DNA from: Escherichia phage vB_EcoM_SA35RD
Sequence record: OL960577.1
Strand: one strand, 5' to 3'
DNA length: 64,000 bases
Within the stretch, counting starts at the first letter, position 1. Every line of letters starts with the position of its first letter. Positions 6,849-62,059 of this stretch are shown here, piece by piece. A program made the translations under genes and the position numbers. Below the pieces are notes generated by a model, which worked only from the letters and a program-made list of their open reading frames with translations, did not search any database and had not been told where the DNA came from.

Positions 6849-7373
6849 TCATTTTAGCAAAATAAAATCAACTTGTTCTGCCAATGAACGTCTAAACATT
6901 AATTGACAACTTCCGAGGATGAAATCAGGTGCTTCATAGACCGCGATGTAGTATCCTTTAGCTTTCAAGAGTTCAACATCCACCTGGTCATCAAACCATG
7001 CATAAACCGCGTCAACGCTTTCAAATCCAAAATAGAACCCTTGAGCCCAATCTTCACTCAATTCAAATGTGTACTCAATTCTATGGTATCTTAAGATATT
7101 TTGTTCAAGAAGTTTGTCTTCATTTACTGTAGGACGATTAGGGACATTATAGTTGTCGCCGTGATGGTAGAAGTTACCTGAGAGTATTCCATGCTTATCA
7201 AGGAACTCCCATGTTTCTTCAGAGTTGTCAGTGCCAGACCAACCGTAAGGTGAGCGAGGTTCTTTATTCCAAGAGGTTTCCCAAATTCTGACGGCTTTAC
7301 CGTCTTCGATAACAATTCCTGGTAATGATTCACGTTGAGTACAAAAACTACGTTCTACGCGGTAAACTAACAT
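6849..7373 (-). CDS. hypothetical protein
   Basis: 174 aa ORF; SD AGGAGA before ATG; promoter motif upstream. Confidence 0.45.
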   Translation of the reverse strand: MLVYRVERSFCTQRESLPGIVIEDGKAVRIWETSWNKEPRSPYGWSGTDNSEETWEFLDKHGILSGNFYHHGDNYNVPNRPTVNEDKLLEQNILRYHRIEYTFELSEDWAQGFYFGFESVDAVYAWFDDQVDVELLKAKGYYIAVYEAPDFILGSCQLMFRRSLAEQVDFILLK

Positions 7374-7398
7374 ATTATTCTCCTCTGGTTGATATGGT

Positions 7399-7427
7399 TA
7401 TAATATCAAAACCAGAGGAGAAGTAAA
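7399..7427 (-). promoter_or_regulatory. T4-type early promoter-like element
   Basis: GTTTAC-17nt-TATTAT; spacer is inverted repeat of downstream SD region. Confidence 0.45.
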
Positions 7428-7432
7428 CAACT

Positions 7433-7852
7433 TTATGCGAAAGCAGCTGGGCTATATTTTTTAATTTGGAATTCAGGAACTACCATGAACTGACCAGCGA
7501 AAACGATGTTATAAAGCTTAACACCATCTTCTACCCAACGGTCGCTAATAAATCCGGCGATTTGCTTAGTTTTCCATGGCGTTCCATCAGTTGCCGCAGC
7601 AATAGTGAATTCATGGTCTTTTTCAACAGAAACTGATCTGCATAGTCCCCATTTGAACGCTTTTTCTTCTGGCTCAATGAACTGGCTTGAGACGTAGCCA
7701 ATATTACCATTAGCATCACGAACTTTAACTTGGTTACGACCAAAAACCGGATCACTCACAGAAAGAACTTCAACCAACTTCCCGGCAACTTTAGAGCGAG
7801 AAGCAACAGATACATATACGTAATCACCTGTAGAGAGATTTACAATATTCAT
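7433..7852 (-). CDS. hypothetical protein, tandem paralog family member 1
   Basis: C-terminal motif SDRWVEDGVKLYNIVFAGQF shared with the two upstream ORFs. Confidence 0.5.
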   Translation of the reverse strand: MNIVNLSTGDYVYVSVASRSKVAGKLVEVLSVSDPVFGRNQVKVRDANGNIGYVSSQFIEPEEKAFKWGLCRSVSVEKDHEFTIAAATDGTPWKTKQIAGFISDRWVEDGVKLYNIVFAGQFMVVPEFQIKKYSPAAFA

Positions 7853-12819: not shown

Positions 12820-13400
12820 TAAAAATTCAACATCTTTAAGTGAATGATTTTGTATACTCGAGACAAAGGGTCATACTCTAACTCTTCGATTTCCACAATC
12901 TCAAATCTAGAGATACCTGAAACCATGTACTCTTGTTCAGATTCAATCATATCTAGGACGTCAACACGTGTTTCTTCCATAACATGCTTAGGGTTCTTTC
13001 CGGCGAGTACAATGTTAACCATGTTTTGGTAGTAATCAAAAATGAATGGAGCATTCCTGAGACTAAGAATAGTGTACGTCTGATATTCCCAACTCCCAGA
13101 GAATTGACGAGCTGTGCTGAAATCAGTTGTGAACGATGTTACTCGTCCAGGAGACCAATGGCATCCAACAGAAAGAAGGGAAAGACGTTCTACTTCTTCT
13201 GGAGTTACACCACGGTAGAGTTCTACTGGTACTGTAGAAGTCATATGCTTACGAACAAGATGGTCTAATTCATAGTGGAAATCCGGGTCTTCCTTAGAAT
13301 CGGTGCAAGCCCAGAGAATGTTTTGTTCTTGGCGGGTGAATTTGCTATCAATCAGATTTGTTAGGTATTCGCGTTCTTGAAGTTCAGATTGACATGTCAT
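12819..13400 (-). CDS. modB: ADP-ribosyltransferase ModB-like
   Basis: 193 aa; paralog of ModA-like ORF (YRGVT, FTTDFSTARQF); synteny. Confidence 0.6.
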   Translation of the reverse strand: MTCQSELQEREYLTNLIDSKFTRQEQNILWACTDSKEDPDFHYELDHLVRKHMTSTVPVELYRGVTPEEVERLSLLSVGCHWSPGRVTSFTTDFSTARQFSGSWEYQTYTILSLRNAPFIFDYYQNMVNIVLAGKNPKHVMEETRVDVLDMIESEQEYMVSGISRFEIVEIEELEYDPLSRVYKIIHLKMLNF

Positions 13401-19550: not shown

Positions 19551-19739
19551 TTATCGAAAATCTGATTCGAAAACTTTCTCGTCATTAACAAATGCTTTAA
19601 CTAATGCGTTGTTCACTTCAGCAAGTTGTACCACAACCCACTCGATTTCTTCGCGATCACCTGATAACATGATATCTTTAGTGAACATCTCACCGCTTTT
19701 AAACCAACCGATAAAAGTAACTTTAGTTAATTTGCTCAT
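19551..19739 (-). CDS. dmd: Dmd-like antitoxin (discriminator of mRNA degradation)
   Basis: Start at MSKLTKVTFIGWFKSGEMFTKDI after GAGGAA SD; size (~62 aa) and position before gene 41 as T4 dmd. Confidence 0.5.
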   Translation of the reverse strand: MSKLTKVTFIGWFKSGEMFTKDIMLSGDREEIEWVVVQLAEVNNALVKAFVNDEKVFESDFR

Positions 19740-20053
19740 ATTTCCTCGCAAAATGCCCATTCAGCGTGATAAACTGTAGCGCCTTTAGTATCATTCATTT
19801 GAACTACATCTACCGGAGAAATTACTCGATAGAGACGTGGTTCACCTCCATAAGAGCGTGCTGCTCGTCCTGCATAAATCTTTGCTAAACCAATATCTTC
19901 AGTAAAGAATACACGATCCAAGTTTTTCTTACGTCCAGTTTCAGACAGAACTCCTGTTTCTTCAGGAGGACAAAGCATGTTTTCGATGTTAGCTGAACTA
20001 CTTGAACCGTGATAAAAAATCTTAAATTCTGCTTTACAATCGATGGTTTTCAT
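19736..20053 (-). CDS. small Arr/Tpt1-like protein (possible ADP-ribosyltransferase fold)
   Basis: 105 aa; FYHGSSS...VFFTED...YAG...YRVISPV pattern resembles Arr family; weak, by eye. Confidence 0.35.
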   Translation of the reverse strand: MKTIDCKAEFKIFYHGSSSSANIENMLCPPEETGVLSETGRKKNLDRVFFTEDIGLAKIYAGRAARSYGGEPRLYRVISPVDVVQMNDTKGATVYHAEWAFCEEI

Positions 20054-20079
20054 TTTGTTCTCCAGTAGTTGATAGGTCT

Positions 20080-20109
20080 ATAATAACACAACTACTGGAG
20101 AAGTAAACT
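20080..20109 (-). promoter_or_regulatory. T4-type early promoter-like element with RBS-pairing spacer
   Basis: GTTTAC-18nt-TATTAT-AGACCTATC; spacer AACTACTGGAG complementary to SD region CTCCAGTAGTT. Confidence 0.45.
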
Positions 20110-20483
20110 TAAAAACGTAATTTAGATACATCTGCGTTGATTTCGTTTTGGTTTGCGTCGTATGCAATTAAACGAACCGCTTTAGATGGGTCATTCAATG
20201 CATAGAAATGATGGAACATTGCTCGAACGATATCACCATTTACGAGTTCTACCTGGATAGGAGAACCTTTTTCGAGTTGGAAATGTTCATAAGCTTTGAT
20301 GGTTCGCAGATAATCAAGTTTTTGATTTCCGGCTCCAACGATTTGTACGATACGTTTGCCCATGTTTTCCATACGAGATACAATAGTTTTAGGAGCAAGA
20401 ATAACGTAGGTTGCCAGTGGAGAAACTACTTCAACAGTTGTGTTTTCGGTGATTGCAGTAAAAATTGCTTGAGACATATTCAT
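20109..20483 (-). CDS. hypothetical protein
   Basis: 124 aa ORF with upstream promoter motif. Confidence 0.45.
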   Translation of the reverse strand: MNMSQAIFTAITENTTVEVVSPLATYVILAPKTIVSRMENMGKRIVQIVGAGNQKLDYLRTIKAYEHFQLEKGSPIQVELVNGDIVRAMFHHFYALNDPSKAVRLIAYDANQNEINADVSKLRF

Positions 20484-20512
20484 AATGTTTTCCTCTTGGT
20501 TAGTGTAAGTAC

Positions 20513-20542
20513 ATCATATCATGCCTAGAGGAAGATGTAAAC
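20513..20542 (-). promoter_or_regulatory. T4-type early promoter-like element
   Basis: GTTTAC-18nt-TATGAT; spacer partially complementary to downstream SD region. Confidence 0.4.
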
Positions 20543-42323: not shown

Positions 42324-42386
42324 GATATTTTACTCATTTTAAGACGATAGGAAGATAATAACATGTCTTCCTATCGTTGTACATTA

Positions 42387-50584: not shown

Positions 50585-50589
50585 CTGAT

Positions 50590-53190: not shown

Positions 53191-53217
53191 GTTTTACCTC
53201 CAGTAGTTGATAGGTCT

Positions 53218-53246
53218 ATAATAACATAACTATAGACCTTGTAAAC
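53218..53246 (-). promoter_or_regulatory. T4-type early promoter-like element
   Basis: GTTTAC-17nt-TATTAT-AGACCTATC; ~30 bp identical to locus at 20060-20090. Confidence 0.45.
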
Positions 53247-56554: not shown

Positions 56555-57085
56555 TTATTTCAAAGTTGGGATAATAGAATCGAGATAAGCTTTAAGAGCA
56601 ACTGCTTCATCTTTGTCTAATGTAATGATATGTTGACGAAGGTCATCAATTTGACGAATAACTACGACATCACCATCTTCATAAGAAGGATTAACGCCTA
56701 GGACTGTTGTATAGTCAGGGCGGTCCTGATTTGTAATAAAAGCATTACGGCATTTAGCCCATTGAAGTTTGGCCTTTTTAGCTGTTTCAGATTCCACGAA
56801 TTCTTTCACCTTAGTGACGAATGTTTTCCAATTATTAATAGAAAAACATTCGTCTTCAGTTTCGATATTAACCCCACTATAAAGTCCATGATAAAAACGA
56901 ACTTGAAGGTCTTCGTCAATGTTAATTACAGATGCATGGCCCGGTGGATTGAGTTTCAAAATCTTGTCCAGTTCCATAGGAAGAATAGTAGCAGCATCAT
57001 CTTCTTGTGTCAGAACATACACATAACCACGTTTTTCGATACATAAATCACCAAACAACTCGGTTGTTTCAATTACAGTTTTCAT
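56555..57085 (-). CDS. hypothetical protein
   Basis: 176 aa ORF. Confidence 0.45.
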   Translation of the reverse strand: MKTVIETTELFGDLCIEKRGYVYVLTQEDDAATILPMELDKILKLNPPGHASVINIDEDLQVRFYHGLYSGVNIETEDECFSINNWKTFVTKVKEFVESETAKKAKLQWAKCRNAFITNQDRPDYTTVLGVNPSYEDGDVVVIRQIDDLRQHIITLDKDEAVALKAYLDSIIPTLK

Positions 57086-57265: not shown

Positions 57266-57429
57266 TTTACCATACTCGTTTCAATAAGATTCACTATGCC
57301 GTTTACCATGTTATAAGTAAACATCGGATAATTGTATTGTACTACAACATAAGCGATAAGCAAAAGTTTCATTTTGTTCTCCATTTGTTTTGGTAGGATT
57401 ACTATATCATAGTCCTACCAAGACGTAAA

Positions 57430-57645
57430 CTACCGATTGTGTTTTAAATGTTGATAAAGCTCTTCAACTTGTTTAGGGTCCAGGTAAATAACATCATCAT
57501 CTTGCTCAATGGAAATTCCGCCAGTATTACCTTCAACGAAATTACATTCGCATACTTCAACGGTGCGATATACATCACCAACTGGATGCCCAGGCTCCAG
57601 AACAATCACACCATCTTCAGAACAACCGCTTGGGTCATATAACAT
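57430..57645 (-). CDS. hypothetical small protein, tandem paralog A
   Basis: Start MLYDPSGCSEDGVIVLEPGHP after AGGAAA SD; paralog of next ORF. Confidence 0.4.
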   Translation of the reverse strand: MLYDPSGCSEDGVIVLEPGHPVGDVYRTVEVCECNFVEGNTGGISIEQDDDVIYLDPKQVEELYQHLKHNR

Positions 57646-57908: not shown

Positions 57909-58088
57909 TCACATAATCTCGTTAACATACATTTGCAATTCGGTGTGGGCTTCGGCCATCTTTTTCATAGCTCTGTTAATGTCGATGTCTCCATCTTCGC
58001 AACCATGAGCATTTTCCCAATCAGATACCGCATTAGCGTACTCTTCAATCAAAAACATTAACTTAGAAATTTTTTCTTTACGTGTCAT
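57909..58088 (-). CDS. hypothetical protein
   Basis: Start MTRKEKISKL after GAGGAGAA SD, downstream of promoter motif. Confidence 0.4.
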   Translation of the reverse strand: MTRKEKISKLMFLIEEYANAVSDWENAHGCEDGDIDINRAMKKMAEAHTELQMYVNEIM

Positions 58089-58115
58089 AATGTTCTCCTC
58101 TAGTAAGTAAGGACT

Positions 58116-58144
58116 ACTATAACACAACCTGAGGAGAAGTAAAC
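58116..58144 (-). promoter_or_regulatory. T4-type early promoter-like element with RBS-pairing spacer
   Basis: GTTTAC-17nt-TATAGT; spacer GAGGAGAA inverted with SD region TTCTCCTC. Confidence 0.4.
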
Positions 58145-58189
58145 TGATAGATGCCAAAAAGCCCCAACCATAAGGAAGGGGCTAGTAAA

Positions 58190-58492
58190 TTAGATAGATG
58201 TAGGCTCTAATTTTATTTTCATGAACTCGGCAAATTGTCTGGCAGTTTTTATGCCTTGTTCATGGCATTCAAATGCATCATCACAGGGGCTATTTTTGTA
58301 ATGCTTTGCCATATACTTATAGAATTTTTCAGAATTCTCGACATTTTGAATTTCAAACAAAGTATATACGTTTTTAATCCCTGATTCCATAAAGTTATCA
58401 AAATATGGGTCGGTGTACGCAGTACCAACGATAGGAGTTGTTGCTGCAAAAAACCCCAGCATCGCCATGACAGCTATCGCTCTTAAGGCCAT
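58190..58492 (-). CDS. rI: rI-like lysis-inhibition protein
   Basis: 100 aa, signal-anchor N-terminus, position just upstream of tk as T4 rI; sequence similarity not verified. Confidence 0.4.
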   Translation of the reverse strand: MALRAIAVMAMLGFFAATTPIVGTAYTDPYFDNFMESGIKNVYTLFEIQNVENSEKFYKYMAKHYKNSPCDDAFECHEQGIKTARQFAEFMKIKLEPTSI

Positions 58493-61281: not shown

Positions 61282-61740
61282 CTAGATTTTAATCACTGCT
61301 TTAGAAGCTTTTCCTGGTAGTCGTTTACTGTTAATAATAGCCATTCTACATTGAAGAGTCTTCATTTTGAATGTCGGATTTTCGCGACAAACTGTAAGTC
61401 CTAACCAAAGATTTCCGTCAGTTATTTCTAAACGGCCTGGACGATACTCGACACCTTCGACAAAATCTTCATCAACATCTGGACGTGCCGGCATTGATAA
61501 AAATTCTGCAACTTCTTTAACGTGATTTTTTACTTTATGAAATAATTCAAAAACGTAATTCTCATCTATTTCTCTCTGGATGGCACGATCTAAGAGATGT
61601 TGAGAATACTTGATATGAAAGCCTGGTAGTCCAAGAGACTTTGCAGCATCTTTTATACCGGCATTTATTTTGCGGAACTCCGTTTCAAAGATTCGACGGA
61701 GTTTATTACGACGGATAAAAACGTCTGAATTGATAGTCAT
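61282..61740 (-). CDS. regB: RegB site-specific endoribonuclease
   Basis: 152 aa; KYSQHLLDRAIQREIDE...RPGRLEITDGNLWLG matches remembered T4 RegB; synteny. Confidence 0.7.
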   Translation of the reverse strand: MTINSDVFIRRNKLRRIFETEFRKINAGIKDAAKSLGLPGFHIKYSQHLLDRAIQREIDENYVFELFHKVKNHVKEVAEFLSMPARPDVDEDFVEGVEYRPGRLEITDGNLWLGLTVCRENPTFKMKTLQCRMAIINSKRLPGKASKAVIKI

Positions 61741-61768
61741 TTTGATTTCTCCTCTAGTTGACAGGTCT

Positions 61769-61797
61769 ATAGTAACACAACTAGAGGAGAAGTAAAC
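61769..61797 (-). promoter_or_regulatory. T4-type early promoter-like element upstream of regB with RBS-pairing spacer
   Basis: GTTTAC-17nt-TACTAT; 14-bp inverted repeat TTCTCCTCTAGTTG / CAACTAGAGGAGAA spans promoter and SD. Confidence 0.45.
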
Positions 61798-61801
61798 TAC
61801 T

Positions 61802-62059
61802 TTATTGATAAAATGGAGTTAAAGCCCAAGATTCTTTAGATACTATATTGGCGAAATGCCTCATCTCTTCGATTTGGCGACGACGTTGGTCAGCATAGTC
61901 TTCTTCGCCTTCTTCCTTACAATCTTCAAGGTCTTCTTCAAGATACTTTAAGTATTCACTACAAATTTTGTTGACCTTTTCTTGGAAGTCCAATAACCCA
62001 GTAATAGTAGAAGCCATTAGTATTTTTCCTCGGGTCGAAATACTGCACGACATGCCCAC
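61802..62059 (-). CDS. hypothetical protein
   Basis: 85 aa ORF. Confidence 0.4.
   Translation of the reverse strand: MGMSCSISTRGKILMASTITGLLDFQEKVNKICSEYLKYLEEDLEDCKEEGEEDYADQRRRQIEEMRHFANIVSKESWALTPFYQ

What the first reader, a model, noticed from the sequence alone, without database searches (positions are those of the whole stretch)
61748..61797. Inverted repeats pairing promoter spacers with downstream ribosome-binding sites
At several genes the promoter spacer is the reverse complement of the Shine-Dalgarno region just downstream: regB (TTCTCCTCTAGTTG at 61748-61761 with CAACTAGAGGAGAA at 61778-61791), 7381-7417 (CCTCTGG / CCAGAGG), 20058-20103 (CTCCAGTAG / CTACTGGAG) and 58093-58138 (TTCTCCTC / GAGGAGAA). 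Read-through transcripts from upstream would fold the SD into a hairpin, while transcripts starting at the internal promoter would leave it free. This matches the arrangement I recall being described for T4 gene e, soc and 49, here apparently applied to early genes.
Basis: partly seen in the sequence, partly recalled or inferred. Interest (0 to 1): 0.5.

Follow-up and report, generated by a model that had tools for sequence, protein, structure and literature searches.

The report
Early-promoter hairpins that mask ribosome-binding sites
In this T4-like phage, three early genes (regB, the motB.2 homologue and a 105-aa gene) have a promoter whose spacer base-pairs with the gene's own ribosome-binding site, so RNA arriving from upstream should be untranslatable there while RNA started at that promoter stays open; this is a known T4 trick so far described only for late genes.

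Summary
The inverted repeats are real. Genes lie on the minus strand, laid out as GTTTAC(-35), 17-nt spacer, -10, leader, SD, ATG. Three sites (regB 61747-61791; 20058-20102; 7378-7422) have perfect 13-14 bp stems. They are the only perfect inverted repeats of 13 bp or more in the window (0.07 expected). The fourth site (58093-58138) has only 8 bp, is not the predicted fold, and follows a terminator-like hairpin.

Read-through RNA buries the SD (P unpaired about 0.01), whereas promoter-initiated RNA leaves it about 50% open. Predicted stabilities (-18 to -23 kcal/mol) exceed those of the validated T4 e, 49 and I-TevI hairpins.

The pairing is conserved with compensatory changes at regB (at least 10 different arm sequences across T4-like lineages) and at motB.2. 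T4 itself has it at 7 of 33 early-promoter units.

The most likely function is a translational insulator that ties translation to the gene's own immediate-early promoter. Open reviews list only late genes for this mechanism, and the PeSL papers read early-promoter stem-loops as terminators. I rate it a new variant of a known kind. The function remains untested experimentally.

The parts
61792..61797 (-). regB early promoter, -35 hexamer GTTTAC
   Evidence: matches the T4-type early consensus TTTACW-N17-TAYWAT quoted; it starts 4 nt after the upstream ORF's stop codon (61802-61804)
61778..61791 (-). regB 5' arm TTCTCCTCTAGTTG, the first 14 nt of the 17-nt promoter spacer; present only in RNA that starts upstream
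61769..61774 (-). regB promoter -10 hexamer TACTAT, which lies in the hairpin loop
61747..61760 (-). regB 3' arm CAACTAGAGGAGAA, containing the Shine-Dalgarno sequence and RegB target GGAG
61282..61740 (-). regB coding sequence (152 aa; 77% identical to T4 RegB)
20058..20108 (-). Second unit: -35 at 20103-20108, 5' arm 20089-20102 (TTCTCCAGTAGTTG), -10 at 20080-20085, 3' arm/SD 20058-20071 (CAACTACTGGAGAA). ATG at 20053 starts a 105-aa gene (19736-20053). The upstream ORF's stop codon is 20109-20111.
   Evidence: (z = -4.23)
7378..7428 (-). Third unit: -35 at 7423-7428, 5' arm 7410-7422 (TTCTCCTCTGGTT), -10 at 7400-7405, 3' arm/SD 7378-7390 (AACCAGAGGAGAA). ATG at 7373 starts a 174-aa motB.2 homologue (6849-7373). 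The upstream ORF's stop codon is 7433-7435.
   Evidence: (z = -4.10)
58093..58144 (-). Fourth, weak unit: -35 at 58139-58144, 8-nt 5' arm 58131-58138, -10 at 58116-58121, 8-nt SD arm 58093-58100. ATG at 58088 starts a 59-aa ORF. The stem is not in the predicted minimum-energy fold.
   Evidence: z = 0.18; -15.0; -12.6
58156..58183 (-). Terminator-like hairpin AGCCCCTTCC-TTAT-GGTTGGGGCT followed by a T-run, between the upstream ORF (ends 58190) and the weak fourth promoter
   Evidence: dG -13.9 followed by TTTTT; missed by the tool's scan, which did not list it
20490..20542 (-). Intermediate unit: -35 at 20537-20542, spacer TTCCTCT (20527-20533) complementary to SD AGAGGAA (20490-20496), 7+2 bp. 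ATG at 20483 starts a 124-aa gene.
   Evidence: -12.8; no clear accessibility difference, 0.48 vs 0.51

Best explanation
These are RNA-level translational insulators built into immediate-early promoters. The 5' arm of the hairpin is the promoter spacer, just downstream of the -35. The loop holds the -10 and the transcription start. The 3' arm is the gene's Shine-Dalgarno region.

Any transcript that enters from the upstream gene contains both arms and folds, burying the SD and, where present, the RegB target GGAG. That copy of the gene is then not translated. A transcript started at the embedded early promoter begins inside the loop, lacks the 5' arm, and has a free SD.

The protein is therefore made only from its own promoter, which in T4 is shut off 2-3 min after infection. 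Longer early or middle transcripts that read through would not prolong its synthesis. For regB, long transcripts should also resist RegB cutting at this site.

Shown here: the sequence anatomy, the thermodynamic prediction, the conservation and the covariation. Inferred: the transcription start position in this phage, the existence of read-through RNA, folding in vivo, and the effect on translation.
For: 1. Anatomy and chance.

2. Folding: read-through RNAs form the SD-burying hairpin while short RNAs are unstructured (for the window; for T4 regB, z = -2.86, and T4 motB.2, z = -7.16).

3. Accessibility: in the 10 strong units (3 window, 7 T4), P(SD unpaired) is 0.012 in read-through RNA and 0.50 in promoter-initiated RNA. 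In the 43 other early units it is 0.40 and 0.52.

4. Calibration: the validated T4 e hairpin gives 0.00 versus 0.65-0.91 with the same method. The early hairpins are -18 to -23 kcal/mol, against -11.6 to -13.3 for e, I-TevI and 49. The e hairpin is reported to lower lysozyme synthesis 100-fold.

5. Covariation at regB: at least 10 different arm sequences occur across T4-like lineages. Cognate duplexes average -16.4 versus -10.2 kcal/mol for non-cognate pairs, and 0 of 100,000 permutations matched this. 72.6% of cells are paired versus 61.4% shuffled (0/500) and 42-47% slid, and 11 of 14 pairs change on both sides.

6. The motB.2 orthologues (33% protein identity to T4) have three different complementary arm pairs.

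7. The 3' arm includes the SD core in every stem-bearing regB and motB.2 lineage, even though the inner stem sequence varies freely.

8. The promoter abuts the upstream stop codon with no terminator at all three strong sites. The T4 regB promoter is a documented early promoter that turns off at 2-3 min, and RegB is tightly regulated. RegB is inhibited by RNA secondary structure.
Against: There are no experimental data for these sites: no mapped 5' ends, no structure probing, no reporter fusions.

Only 3 of 20 early units in the window and 7 of 33 in T4 have the feature, and some regB and motB.2 lineages lack it (L083/L120, L125/126, L141/142/154). It is therefore dispensable.

A second class of early-promoter hairpins also encloses the -10 but does not include the SD. 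A function common to both classes, such as attenuating read-through transcription, could be primary, with SD masking as a side effect.

The excess of G.U over A.C mismatches that would point to sense-strand RNA is only 10:4 (p = 0.18).

The trade-off between terminator and hairpin goes in the predicted direction but is not significant within window plus T4 (0/10 vs 8/43, p = 0.33).

The regB covariation alignment was anchored on the SD core and its complement, which favours the structure at those four pairs.
Confidence: 0.6

Rival explanations
1. The stem-loops are PeSL-type elements. Their selected roles would be to attenuate or terminate transcription arriving from upstream, insulating the cassette, and to serve as conserved linkers for recombination that shuffles genes. 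Overlap with the SD would be incidental.
For: Arbiol 2010 and Comeau 2014 describe early promoter plus stem-loop plus SD plus ATG cassettes in T4-like phages. One such stem-loop reduced downstream lacZ expression about as much as the rrnB T1 terminator.

The four window copies share GTTTACTTCTCC and near-identical loops. Identical promoter cassettes also occur at 50585 and 8934.

A class of hairpins that enclose the -10 without touching the SD exists in both the window and T4. Cassette halves look recombined in orthologues of the 105-aa gene.
Against: There is no U-tract after the 3' arm (GGAGAAAUCAAAAUG). The stems are AU-rich with 17-19 nt loops, unlike intrinsic terminators and unlike the G(n)/C(n) stems of RB49 and phi1.

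The stem-loops described for the PST/T4 pair lie upstream of the promoter, not across it.

A terminator would not need its 3' arm to be the SD, yet that is what is conserved through arm turnover at regB and motB.2. regB and motB.2 also keep stable syntenic positions from T4 to this phage.
Confidence: 0.17
2. The hairpin enforces translational coupling. On polycistronic RNA the SD would be opened only when a ribosome finishes the upstream gene, whose stop codon lies a few bases before the stem. The downstream gene would then be translated in proportion to the upstream one rather than silenced.
For: At all three strong sites the upstream stop codon lies 0-4 nt before the -35, which is 6-10 nt before the first paired base. 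T4 regB has the same layout, TAAct then GTTTAC.
Against: From established knowledge of ribosome footprints, a terminating ribosome reaches roughly 9-12 nt beyond the stop codon. It would therefore melt at most 0-3 of the 13-14 pairs, leaving a stem still stronger than the validated e hairpin. This is an inference and was not tested here.
Confidence: 0.1
3. The inverted repeat acts in DNA. It could be a cruciform or single-strand hairpin at the promoter, or a binding site for a dimeric protein, that modulates promoter opening, replication or recombination.
For: The repeat is centred on the -10. Four of the five strongest inverted repeats in the window enclose an early-promoter -10. Covariation alone cannot tell an RNA stem from a DNA stem.
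Against: Loops of 17-19 nt disfavour cruciform extrusion (established knowledge). The arm sequences change freely between lineages, so no fixed protein-binding sequence is conserved. Stems tolerate G.U-type mismatches on the sense strand more often than A.C (10 vs 4; T4 regB has 2). The 3' arm tracks the SD rather than keeping a fixed distance from the -10.
Confidence: 0.08
4. The match is a by-product of consensus sequences. T4-type early promoters tend to be pyrimidine-rich just after the -35 (GTTTACtt.tcc), and SDs are purine-rich (GGAGAA), so some complementarity arises without selection.
For: Non-cognate spacer/SD duplexes among regB orthologues already average -10 kcal/mol. The 8-bp match at 58144 and the 5-7 bp matches elsewhere look like this.
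Against: The pairing extends 6-9 bp beyond the CTCC/GGAG core into positions that vary and covary. Perfect repeats of 13 bp or more are about 40-fold over expectation. Each of the three spacers pairs best with its own SD among all 20.
Confidence: 0.03

Closest known systems
T4 late-gene hairpins at e (lysozyme), soc, 49 and I-TevI, where the ribosome-binding site is sequestered in long transcripts and a promoter inside the hairpin yields translatable short transcripts
   Same: The logic and geometry are the same. The 5' arm lies upstream of an internal promoter's start site and the 3' arm is the SD or AUG. Predicted masking is equal or stronger: P(SD unpaired) about 0.00 in long RNA versus 0.5-0.9 in short RNA.
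   Different: Here the internal promoter is a sigma-70-type immediate-early promoter (GTTTAC-N17-TAnnAT), not a late TATAAATA box. The 5' arm is the promoter spacer itself and the -10 sits in a larger loop of 17-19 nt. The temporal logic is reversed: translation is restricted to the earliest transcripts rather than delayed until late. A 2010 review states that the known cases 'are all late genes'.
PeSLs (promoter-early stem-loops) of RB49/phi1, PST/T4 and nt-1/KVP40 (Arbiol et al. 2010; Comeau et al. 2014)
   Same: Both are compact intergenic cassettes with an AT-rich upstream region, an early promoter, a stem-loop, an SD and a start codon, repeated around the genome. In some PeSL subclasses the stem-loops sit between or over the -35 and -10.
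   Different: PeSL stems are described as short G/C-rich stems (RB49, phi1) or as lying just upstream of the promoter (PST/T4). They are interpreted as terminators and recombination linkers. Pairing of the spacer with the SD, and transcript-specific translation, are not described.
Stem-loops noted ahead of T4 ipIII, ipII, denV and orf61.9 (= regB) by Valerie et al. 1986 (Nucleic Acids Res 14:8637; recalled from memory, not readable here), and IP-locus early-promoter stem-loops of Repoila et al. 1994 as cited
   Same: These are the same loci in T4. My scan finds spacer-to-SD stems at denV and regB and hairpins enclosing the -10 at ipII and ipIII.
   Different: As far as I recall, those reports noted potential structures. 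They did not report the promoter-in-loop and SD-masking logic, the covariation, or the cross-phage survey.
RegB autoregulation (cleavage of GGAG in the regB SD)
   Same: It concerns the same SD sequence. RegB is blocked by secondary structure.
   Different: RegB control acts on the accessible (short) transcript. The hairpin would make long transcripts both untranslatable at regB and resistant to RegB at this site. Not all hairpin-bearing genes have GGAG: T4 motB.2, alt.-3 and alc use GAGG.

Membership tests
T4-type promoter-in-hairpin RBS sequestration (e/soc/49/I-TevI kind) | The SD and/or AUG is base-paired in a stable helix in transcripts initiated upstream | tested here: met
   stems of 13-14 bp at -20.5 to -23.2 kcal/mol, with P(SD unpaired) 0.00-0.01 at three sites. 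Not met at the fourth site (58144).
T4-type promoter-in-hairpin RBS sequestration (e/soc/49/I-TevI kind) | A promoter lies within the hairpin, so its transcripts lack the 5' arm and have a free SD | tested here: met
   By sequence only. GTTTAC-N17-TAnnAT has its -10 in the loop, and short RNAs are unstructured. The T4 regB promoter is documented as an early promoter. Start sites in this phage are not mapped.
T4-type promoter-in-hairpin RBS sequestration (e/soc/49/I-TevI kind) | The internal promoter is a late promoter and the gene is a late gene | tested here: not met
   The promoters are sigma-70-type early promoters with no TATAAATA box. A review says all known members are late genes. I therefore call this a variant, not a member.
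T4-type promoter-in-hairpin RBS sequestration (e/soc/49/I-TevI kind) | Upstream transcription actually reads into the element | tested here: inconclusive
   No terminator is present and the gap to the upstream stop codon is 0-4 nt at the three strong sites. No transcript data are available.
T4-type promoter-in-hairpin RBS sequestration (e/soc/49/I-TevI kind) | Long and short transcripts are translated differently | not testable with these tools
   This needs reporter fusions or ribosome profiling.
PeSL (promoter-early stem-loop) cassettes | A compact cassette of early promoter, stem-loop, SD and start codon, repeated in the genome | tested here: met
PeSL (promoter-early stem-loop) cassettes | The stem-loop is a transcription terminator or attenuator (G/C-rich stem; terminator activity) | tested here: not met
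   By sequence, the stems are AU-rich with 17-19 nt loops and have no U-tract. Terminator activity itself cannot be tested here.
PeSL (promoter-early stem-loop) cassettes | The cassettes flank indels or ORFans in hyperplastic regions and mediate recombination | tested here: inconclusive
   regB and motB.2 keep stable syntenic positions. The cassette ahead of the 105-aa gene differs between lineages and looks recombined.
Intrinsic (Rho-independent) terminator | A G/C-rich hairpin immediately followed by a U-run | tested here: not met
   Only the separate hairpin at 58156-58183 fits this description.
Curated RNA families (Rfam 15) | A match at or above the gathering score | tested here: not met
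   no match anywhere in the window.

The most novel reading that the evidence does not exclude
T4-like phages may carry a conserved, previously unrecognised class of translational insulators embedded in early promoters. They would make a subset of immediate-early genes (regB, motB.2, denV, alc, alt.-3, nrdC.8, ndd.4 in T4) translatable only from their own promoter. They would also hide the GGAG/SD from RegB on read-through RNA. That would help explain why the same intergenic GGAG is cut in early transcripts but resistant in middle and late transcripts, and why a 2-3 min promoter shut-off is enough to end synthesis of these proteins. An upstream terminator would be the alternative way to achieve the same insulation.
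Probability: 0.35. Interest if true: 0.65.

Novelty: new variant of a known kind. Interest (0 to 1): 0.55.

Why it matters
T4 is the reference system for temporal gene control in virulent phages, and reviews treat hairpin masking of ribosome-binding sites as a device for late genes only. If the early-promoter version works as predicted, about a fifth of T4-type early promoters carry a built-in rule that only their own transcripts are translated. That would give a simple post-transcriptional explanation for the sharp immediate-early expression of regulators such as RegB. It would link transcript origin to RegB sensitivity, and it would reinterpret part of what has been called PeSL terminators. 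It can be tested directly in T4 with standard genetics. The covarying stems are also a useful annotation signal for early promoters and true start codons in the many unannotated T4-like genomes.

Tried and rejected
1. A plain MAFFT alignment of the regB leaders (A2) put the 3' arms out of register. I replaced it with register-free duplex permutation and with an anchored pseudo-alignment, whose bias I state.

2. The G.U versus A.C asymmetry test, meant to separate sense RNA from DNA or antisense, gave 10:4 (p = 0.18). It is suggestive only.

3. The anticorrelation between upstream terminator and hairpin was 0/10 versus 8/43 (Fisher p = 0.33). It is not significant and is supported only anecdotally by orthologues. 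My first terminator finder gave doubtful calls and I replaced it.

4. The tool's terminator scan did not list the hairpin at 58156-58183.

5. Rfam gave no match.

6. Five further literature searches for a prior description of early-promoter/SD hairpins found none. Piesiniene 2004 (regB of 35 phages) and Miller 2003 (T4 genome review) are not held, so prior description in closed literature cannot be excluded.

7. I considered reading the hairpins as intrinsic terminators and rejected it because there is no U-tract.

8. I considered RegB protection as the universal purpose and rejected it because T4 motB.2, alt.-3 and alc hairpins lack GGAG.

Full report
SOURCE AND ORIENTATION

The window is from a T4-like myovirus, about 98% identical to Escherichia phages JM10, AV115 and G2469. 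G2469 is classified as Mosigvirus. The window is roughly colinear with T4 map positions 5-64 kb. All genes at the four sites are on the minus strand.

Read on that strand, each site is GTTTAC (-35), a 17-nt spacer, TAnnAT (-10), a leader (often AGACCTATCAAC), the SD and the ATG. This matches the T4-type early promoter consensus TTTACW-N17-TAYWAT quoted by Comeau et al. 2014.

The downstream genes are:
- regB (152 aa, 77% identical to T4 RegB);
- a 174-aa homologue of T4 motB.2 (33% identity);
- a 105-aa gene with no T4 homologue in the loci I examined;
- a 59-aa ORF.

CHECK OF THE OBSERVATION

All four repeats exist.
- At regB the right arm 61778-61791 is exact.
- The fourth site is only 8 bp (58093-58100/58131-58138) with a 30-nt loop.

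In the whole window there are five perfect inverted repeats of 12 bp or more with a 3-40 nt loop, against 0.29 expected. There are three of 13 bp or more against 0.07 expected, with a maximum of 1 in 200 dinucleotide shuffles. Those three are exactly the promoter/SD sites.

A scan found 20 early promoter, SD, ATG units on the minus strand. Only these three have strong spacer/SD complementarity (duplex -22.5 to -23.4 kcal/mol), and each spacer pairs best with its own SD among all 20. Site 58144 (-15.0) and a further unit at 20542 (-12.8) are intermediate. The rest are weaker than -11 kcal/mol. The permutation p-value is 1e-4. The feature is therefore real, far beyond chance, and limited to a subset of early promoters.

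FOLDING

Read-through RNA, from about 35 nt upstream of the -35 to +15, forms the SD-burying hairpin at regB (z = -2.5), at 20108 (z = -4.2) and at 7428 (z = -4.1). RNA that begins about 7 nt after the -10 is essentially unstructured.

At 58144 the spacer/SD stem is not in the minimum-energy or centroid fold (z = 0.18).

I also computed partition functions with 33 nt of coding sequence included.
- The 10 strong units (3 in the window, 7 in T4) have mean P(SD unpaired) of 0.012 in read-through RNA and 0.50 in promoter-initiated RNA.
- The 43 other early units give 0.40 and 0.52.

As a calibration, the experimentally validated T4 gene e hairpin gives 0.00 versus 0.65-0.91 with the same method. 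The isolated early hairpins are -18 to -23 kcal/mol, against -11.6 to -13.3 for e, I-TevI and 49. The e hairpin is reported to lower lysozyme synthesis 100-fold.

CONTEXT

At the three strong sites the -35 begins 0-4 nt after the stop codon of the preceding same-strand ORF. The stops are at 61802-61804, 20109-20111 and 7433-7435. No terminator-like hairpin is present. Transcripts of the upstream gene should therefore run into the element.

At the weak site there is a 45-nt gap holding a terminator-like hairpin with a T-run (58156-58183, -13.9 kcal/mol).

CONSERVATION AND COVARIATION

T4 itself has the arrangement at regB: GTTTAC-ttttcctcttgactgtgg-TATAAT-ttttctatcagttaagaggagaataac-ATG. This gives 15 pairs including two G.U.

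I collected regB loci from viral and metagenome contigs and found at least 10 different arm pairs. All of them place the 3' arm on the SD. Examples are TTCTCCTCTAGTTG, TTTTCCTCTTGACTG, ATCTCCTTTTAGT, ATCCTCATTTG, ATCCTCTCTG, TTTCTCCTCTTTATG, TCTCCTGTAAG, ATCTCCTGTAG, CCTCCTTT and CTCCTCTTG.

Among 16 lineage representatives, cognate spacer/SD duplexes average -16.4 kcal/mol against -10.2 for non-cognate pairs. None of 100,000 permutations matched this.

I then built a gapless pseudo-alignment anchored on the -35 and on the SD tetramer. The anchoring favours the four core pairs only.
- 72.6% of cells pair, against 61.4% in shuffles (0/500) and 42-47% when the partner columns are slid.
- 11 of 14 pairs change on both sides.
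- The covariation score is 0.325 against 0.145.

A few lineages lack the stem (L083/L120, L125/126). Distant regB genes at about 40% identity, which have a terminator upstream, also lack it.

The motB.2 orthologues show three unrelated complementary arm pairs:
- window: TTCTCCTCTGGTT/AACCAGAGGAGAA;
- a second clade: TTCTCCTCATG/CATGAGGAGAA;
- T4: TTCCTCGGTTAGTTGTGG/CCATAGCTACTGAGGA.

Within the window, the regB cassette and the 20108 cassette differ by a double compensatory change: CTCTAG/CTAGAG versus CCAGTAG/CTACTGG.

T4-WIDE VIEW

I scanned the early regions of T4 and found 33 early-promoter units.

Class 1: seven units have spacer/SD stems of -17.8 kcal/mol or stronger. They precede motB.2, nrdC.8, regB, denV, alt.-3, alc and the ndd.4 region.

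Class 2: about eight units pair the spacer with the first transcribed bases, giving a tight hairpin with the -10 in the loop and the SD left out. They precede dmd, mobD.2, ipII, ipIII, ipI, trna.4, 30.7 and one near e.8.

The window also has class-2 examples at 42344-42377, 57387-57424 and 53212-53239. Four of the five strongest inverted repeats in the window therefore enclose an early-promoter -10.

WHAT IS KNOWN

Reviews describe RBS-sequestering hairpins with an internal late promoter for e, soc, 49 and I-TevI. One review states that genes regulated this way "are all late genes".

The regB promoter is described as a typical early promoter that turns off at 2-3 min. RegB cuts its own SD, and RegB is inhibited by RNA secondary structure.

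The PeSL papers describe early promoter plus stem-loop cassettes. They interpret the stems as terminators and recombination linkers, and they do not mention SD pairing.

From memory only, Valerie et al. 1986 noted possible stem-loops before ipIII, ipII, denV and orf61.9 (= regB). That agrees with my scan.

Searches found no description of the early-promoter/SD logic. Key closed-access papers could not be read. No Rfam family matches the window.

INTERPRETATION

The best-supported mechanism is transcript-specific translation. Read-through RNA masks the SD, and RNA from the embedded immediate-early promoter does not. Synthesis of the protein is therefore tied to the brief activity of its own promoter. 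For GGAG-type SDs there is a corollary: long transcripts would be shielded from RegB at that site.

The strongest argument that SD masking is itself the selected trait is this: through repeated turnover of the arm sequence at two orthologous loci, the 3' arm stays on the SD.

Rivals that remain open:
- a PeSL-like role in attenuating read-through transcription or in recombination, made more plausible by the class-2 hairpins;
- translational coupling, suggested by the adjacent stop codon, although a terminating ribosome should melt only the bottom 0-3 pairs (inference);
- a DNA-level role.

Two discriminating tests were inconclusive. The G.U to A.C count was 10:4 (p = 0.18). Upstream terminators were found at 0 of 10 strong units versus 8 of 43 others (p = 0.33). 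Every strong hairpin found lacks an upstream terminator. For the 105-aa gene, eight terminator-bearing lineages have only weak stems of -5 to -11 kcal/mol.

VERDICT

It works like the e/soc/49 hairpins but is not a member of that late-gene group, and it overlaps the PeSL concept without fitting the terminator interpretation of PeSLs. I rate it a new variant of a known kind, of moderate interest, and directly testable in T4.

Noticed in passing
window 42344-42377 (minus strand; promoter TGTACA-17-TATTAT around 42360-42385): A perfect 12-bp inverted repeat, ACGATAGGAAGA/TCTTCCTATCGT, with a 10-nt loop that holds an early-type -10. The 3' arm is the first transcribed bases, not the SD. This is a second class of promoter hairpin, also seen in T4 ahead of ipI, ipII, ipIII, dmd, mobD.2 and 30.7. 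Its function is unexplained.
   Followed up: partly
window 57387-57424 and 53212-53239 (minus strand): Two more hairpins with the -10 in the loop, at the early promoters whose -35 is at 57430 and 53246. The spacer pairs with the +1 region (TTGGTAGGA/TCCTACCAA and AGGTCTATA/TATAGACCT). The SD is left unpaired.
   Followed up: partly
window 50585 and 8934 (-35 positions, minus strand): Two early promoters about 41 kb apart share an identical -35-to-(-10) block, GTTTACaaccaaggatggttggagTATAAT, with an internal AACC..GGTT mini-repeat. They look like duplicated or exchanged promoter cassettes.
   Followed up: no
window 56816-56854: A perfect 12-bp inverted repeat, GACGAATGTTTT/AAAACATTCGTC, with a 15-nt loop. 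It appears to lie inside coding sequence and is not associated with a recognisable promoter.
   Followed up: no
window 58156-58183 (minus strand): A terminator-like hairpin with an internal loop and a T-run, between the ORF ending at 58190 and the weak fourth promoter. The tool's consensus terminator scan did not list it.
   Followed up: yes
loci L021-L026 (orthologues of the 105-aa gene), about 60 nt upstream of the ATG: These promoters carry the 5' half ATCTCCTGTAGG, which is also found in the T4 denV cassette and in some regB cassettes. Their 3' arm does not match it (CAACTTGGAGAA), and a terminator lies upstream. It looks as if cassette halves are reassorted between loci.
   Followed up: partly
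many minus-strand early units in the window, e.g. 61768-61757, 20079-20068, 53217-53206: The leader AGACCT(A/G)TCAAC immediately after the -10 is conserved across many early promoters, whether or not they have the hairpin. The initial transcribed sequence therefore seems to be under its own constraint.
   Followed up: no
T4 AF158101, units with -35 at 13186, 55384 and 130310 (loci L135-L137): Some T4 early units without spacer/SD pairing still show a very low predicted SD accessibility in read-through RNA (0.00-0.04, versus 0.69-0.93 in short RNA). This is apparently through pairing with other upstream segments such as CTCC-containing terminator stems.
   Followed up: no
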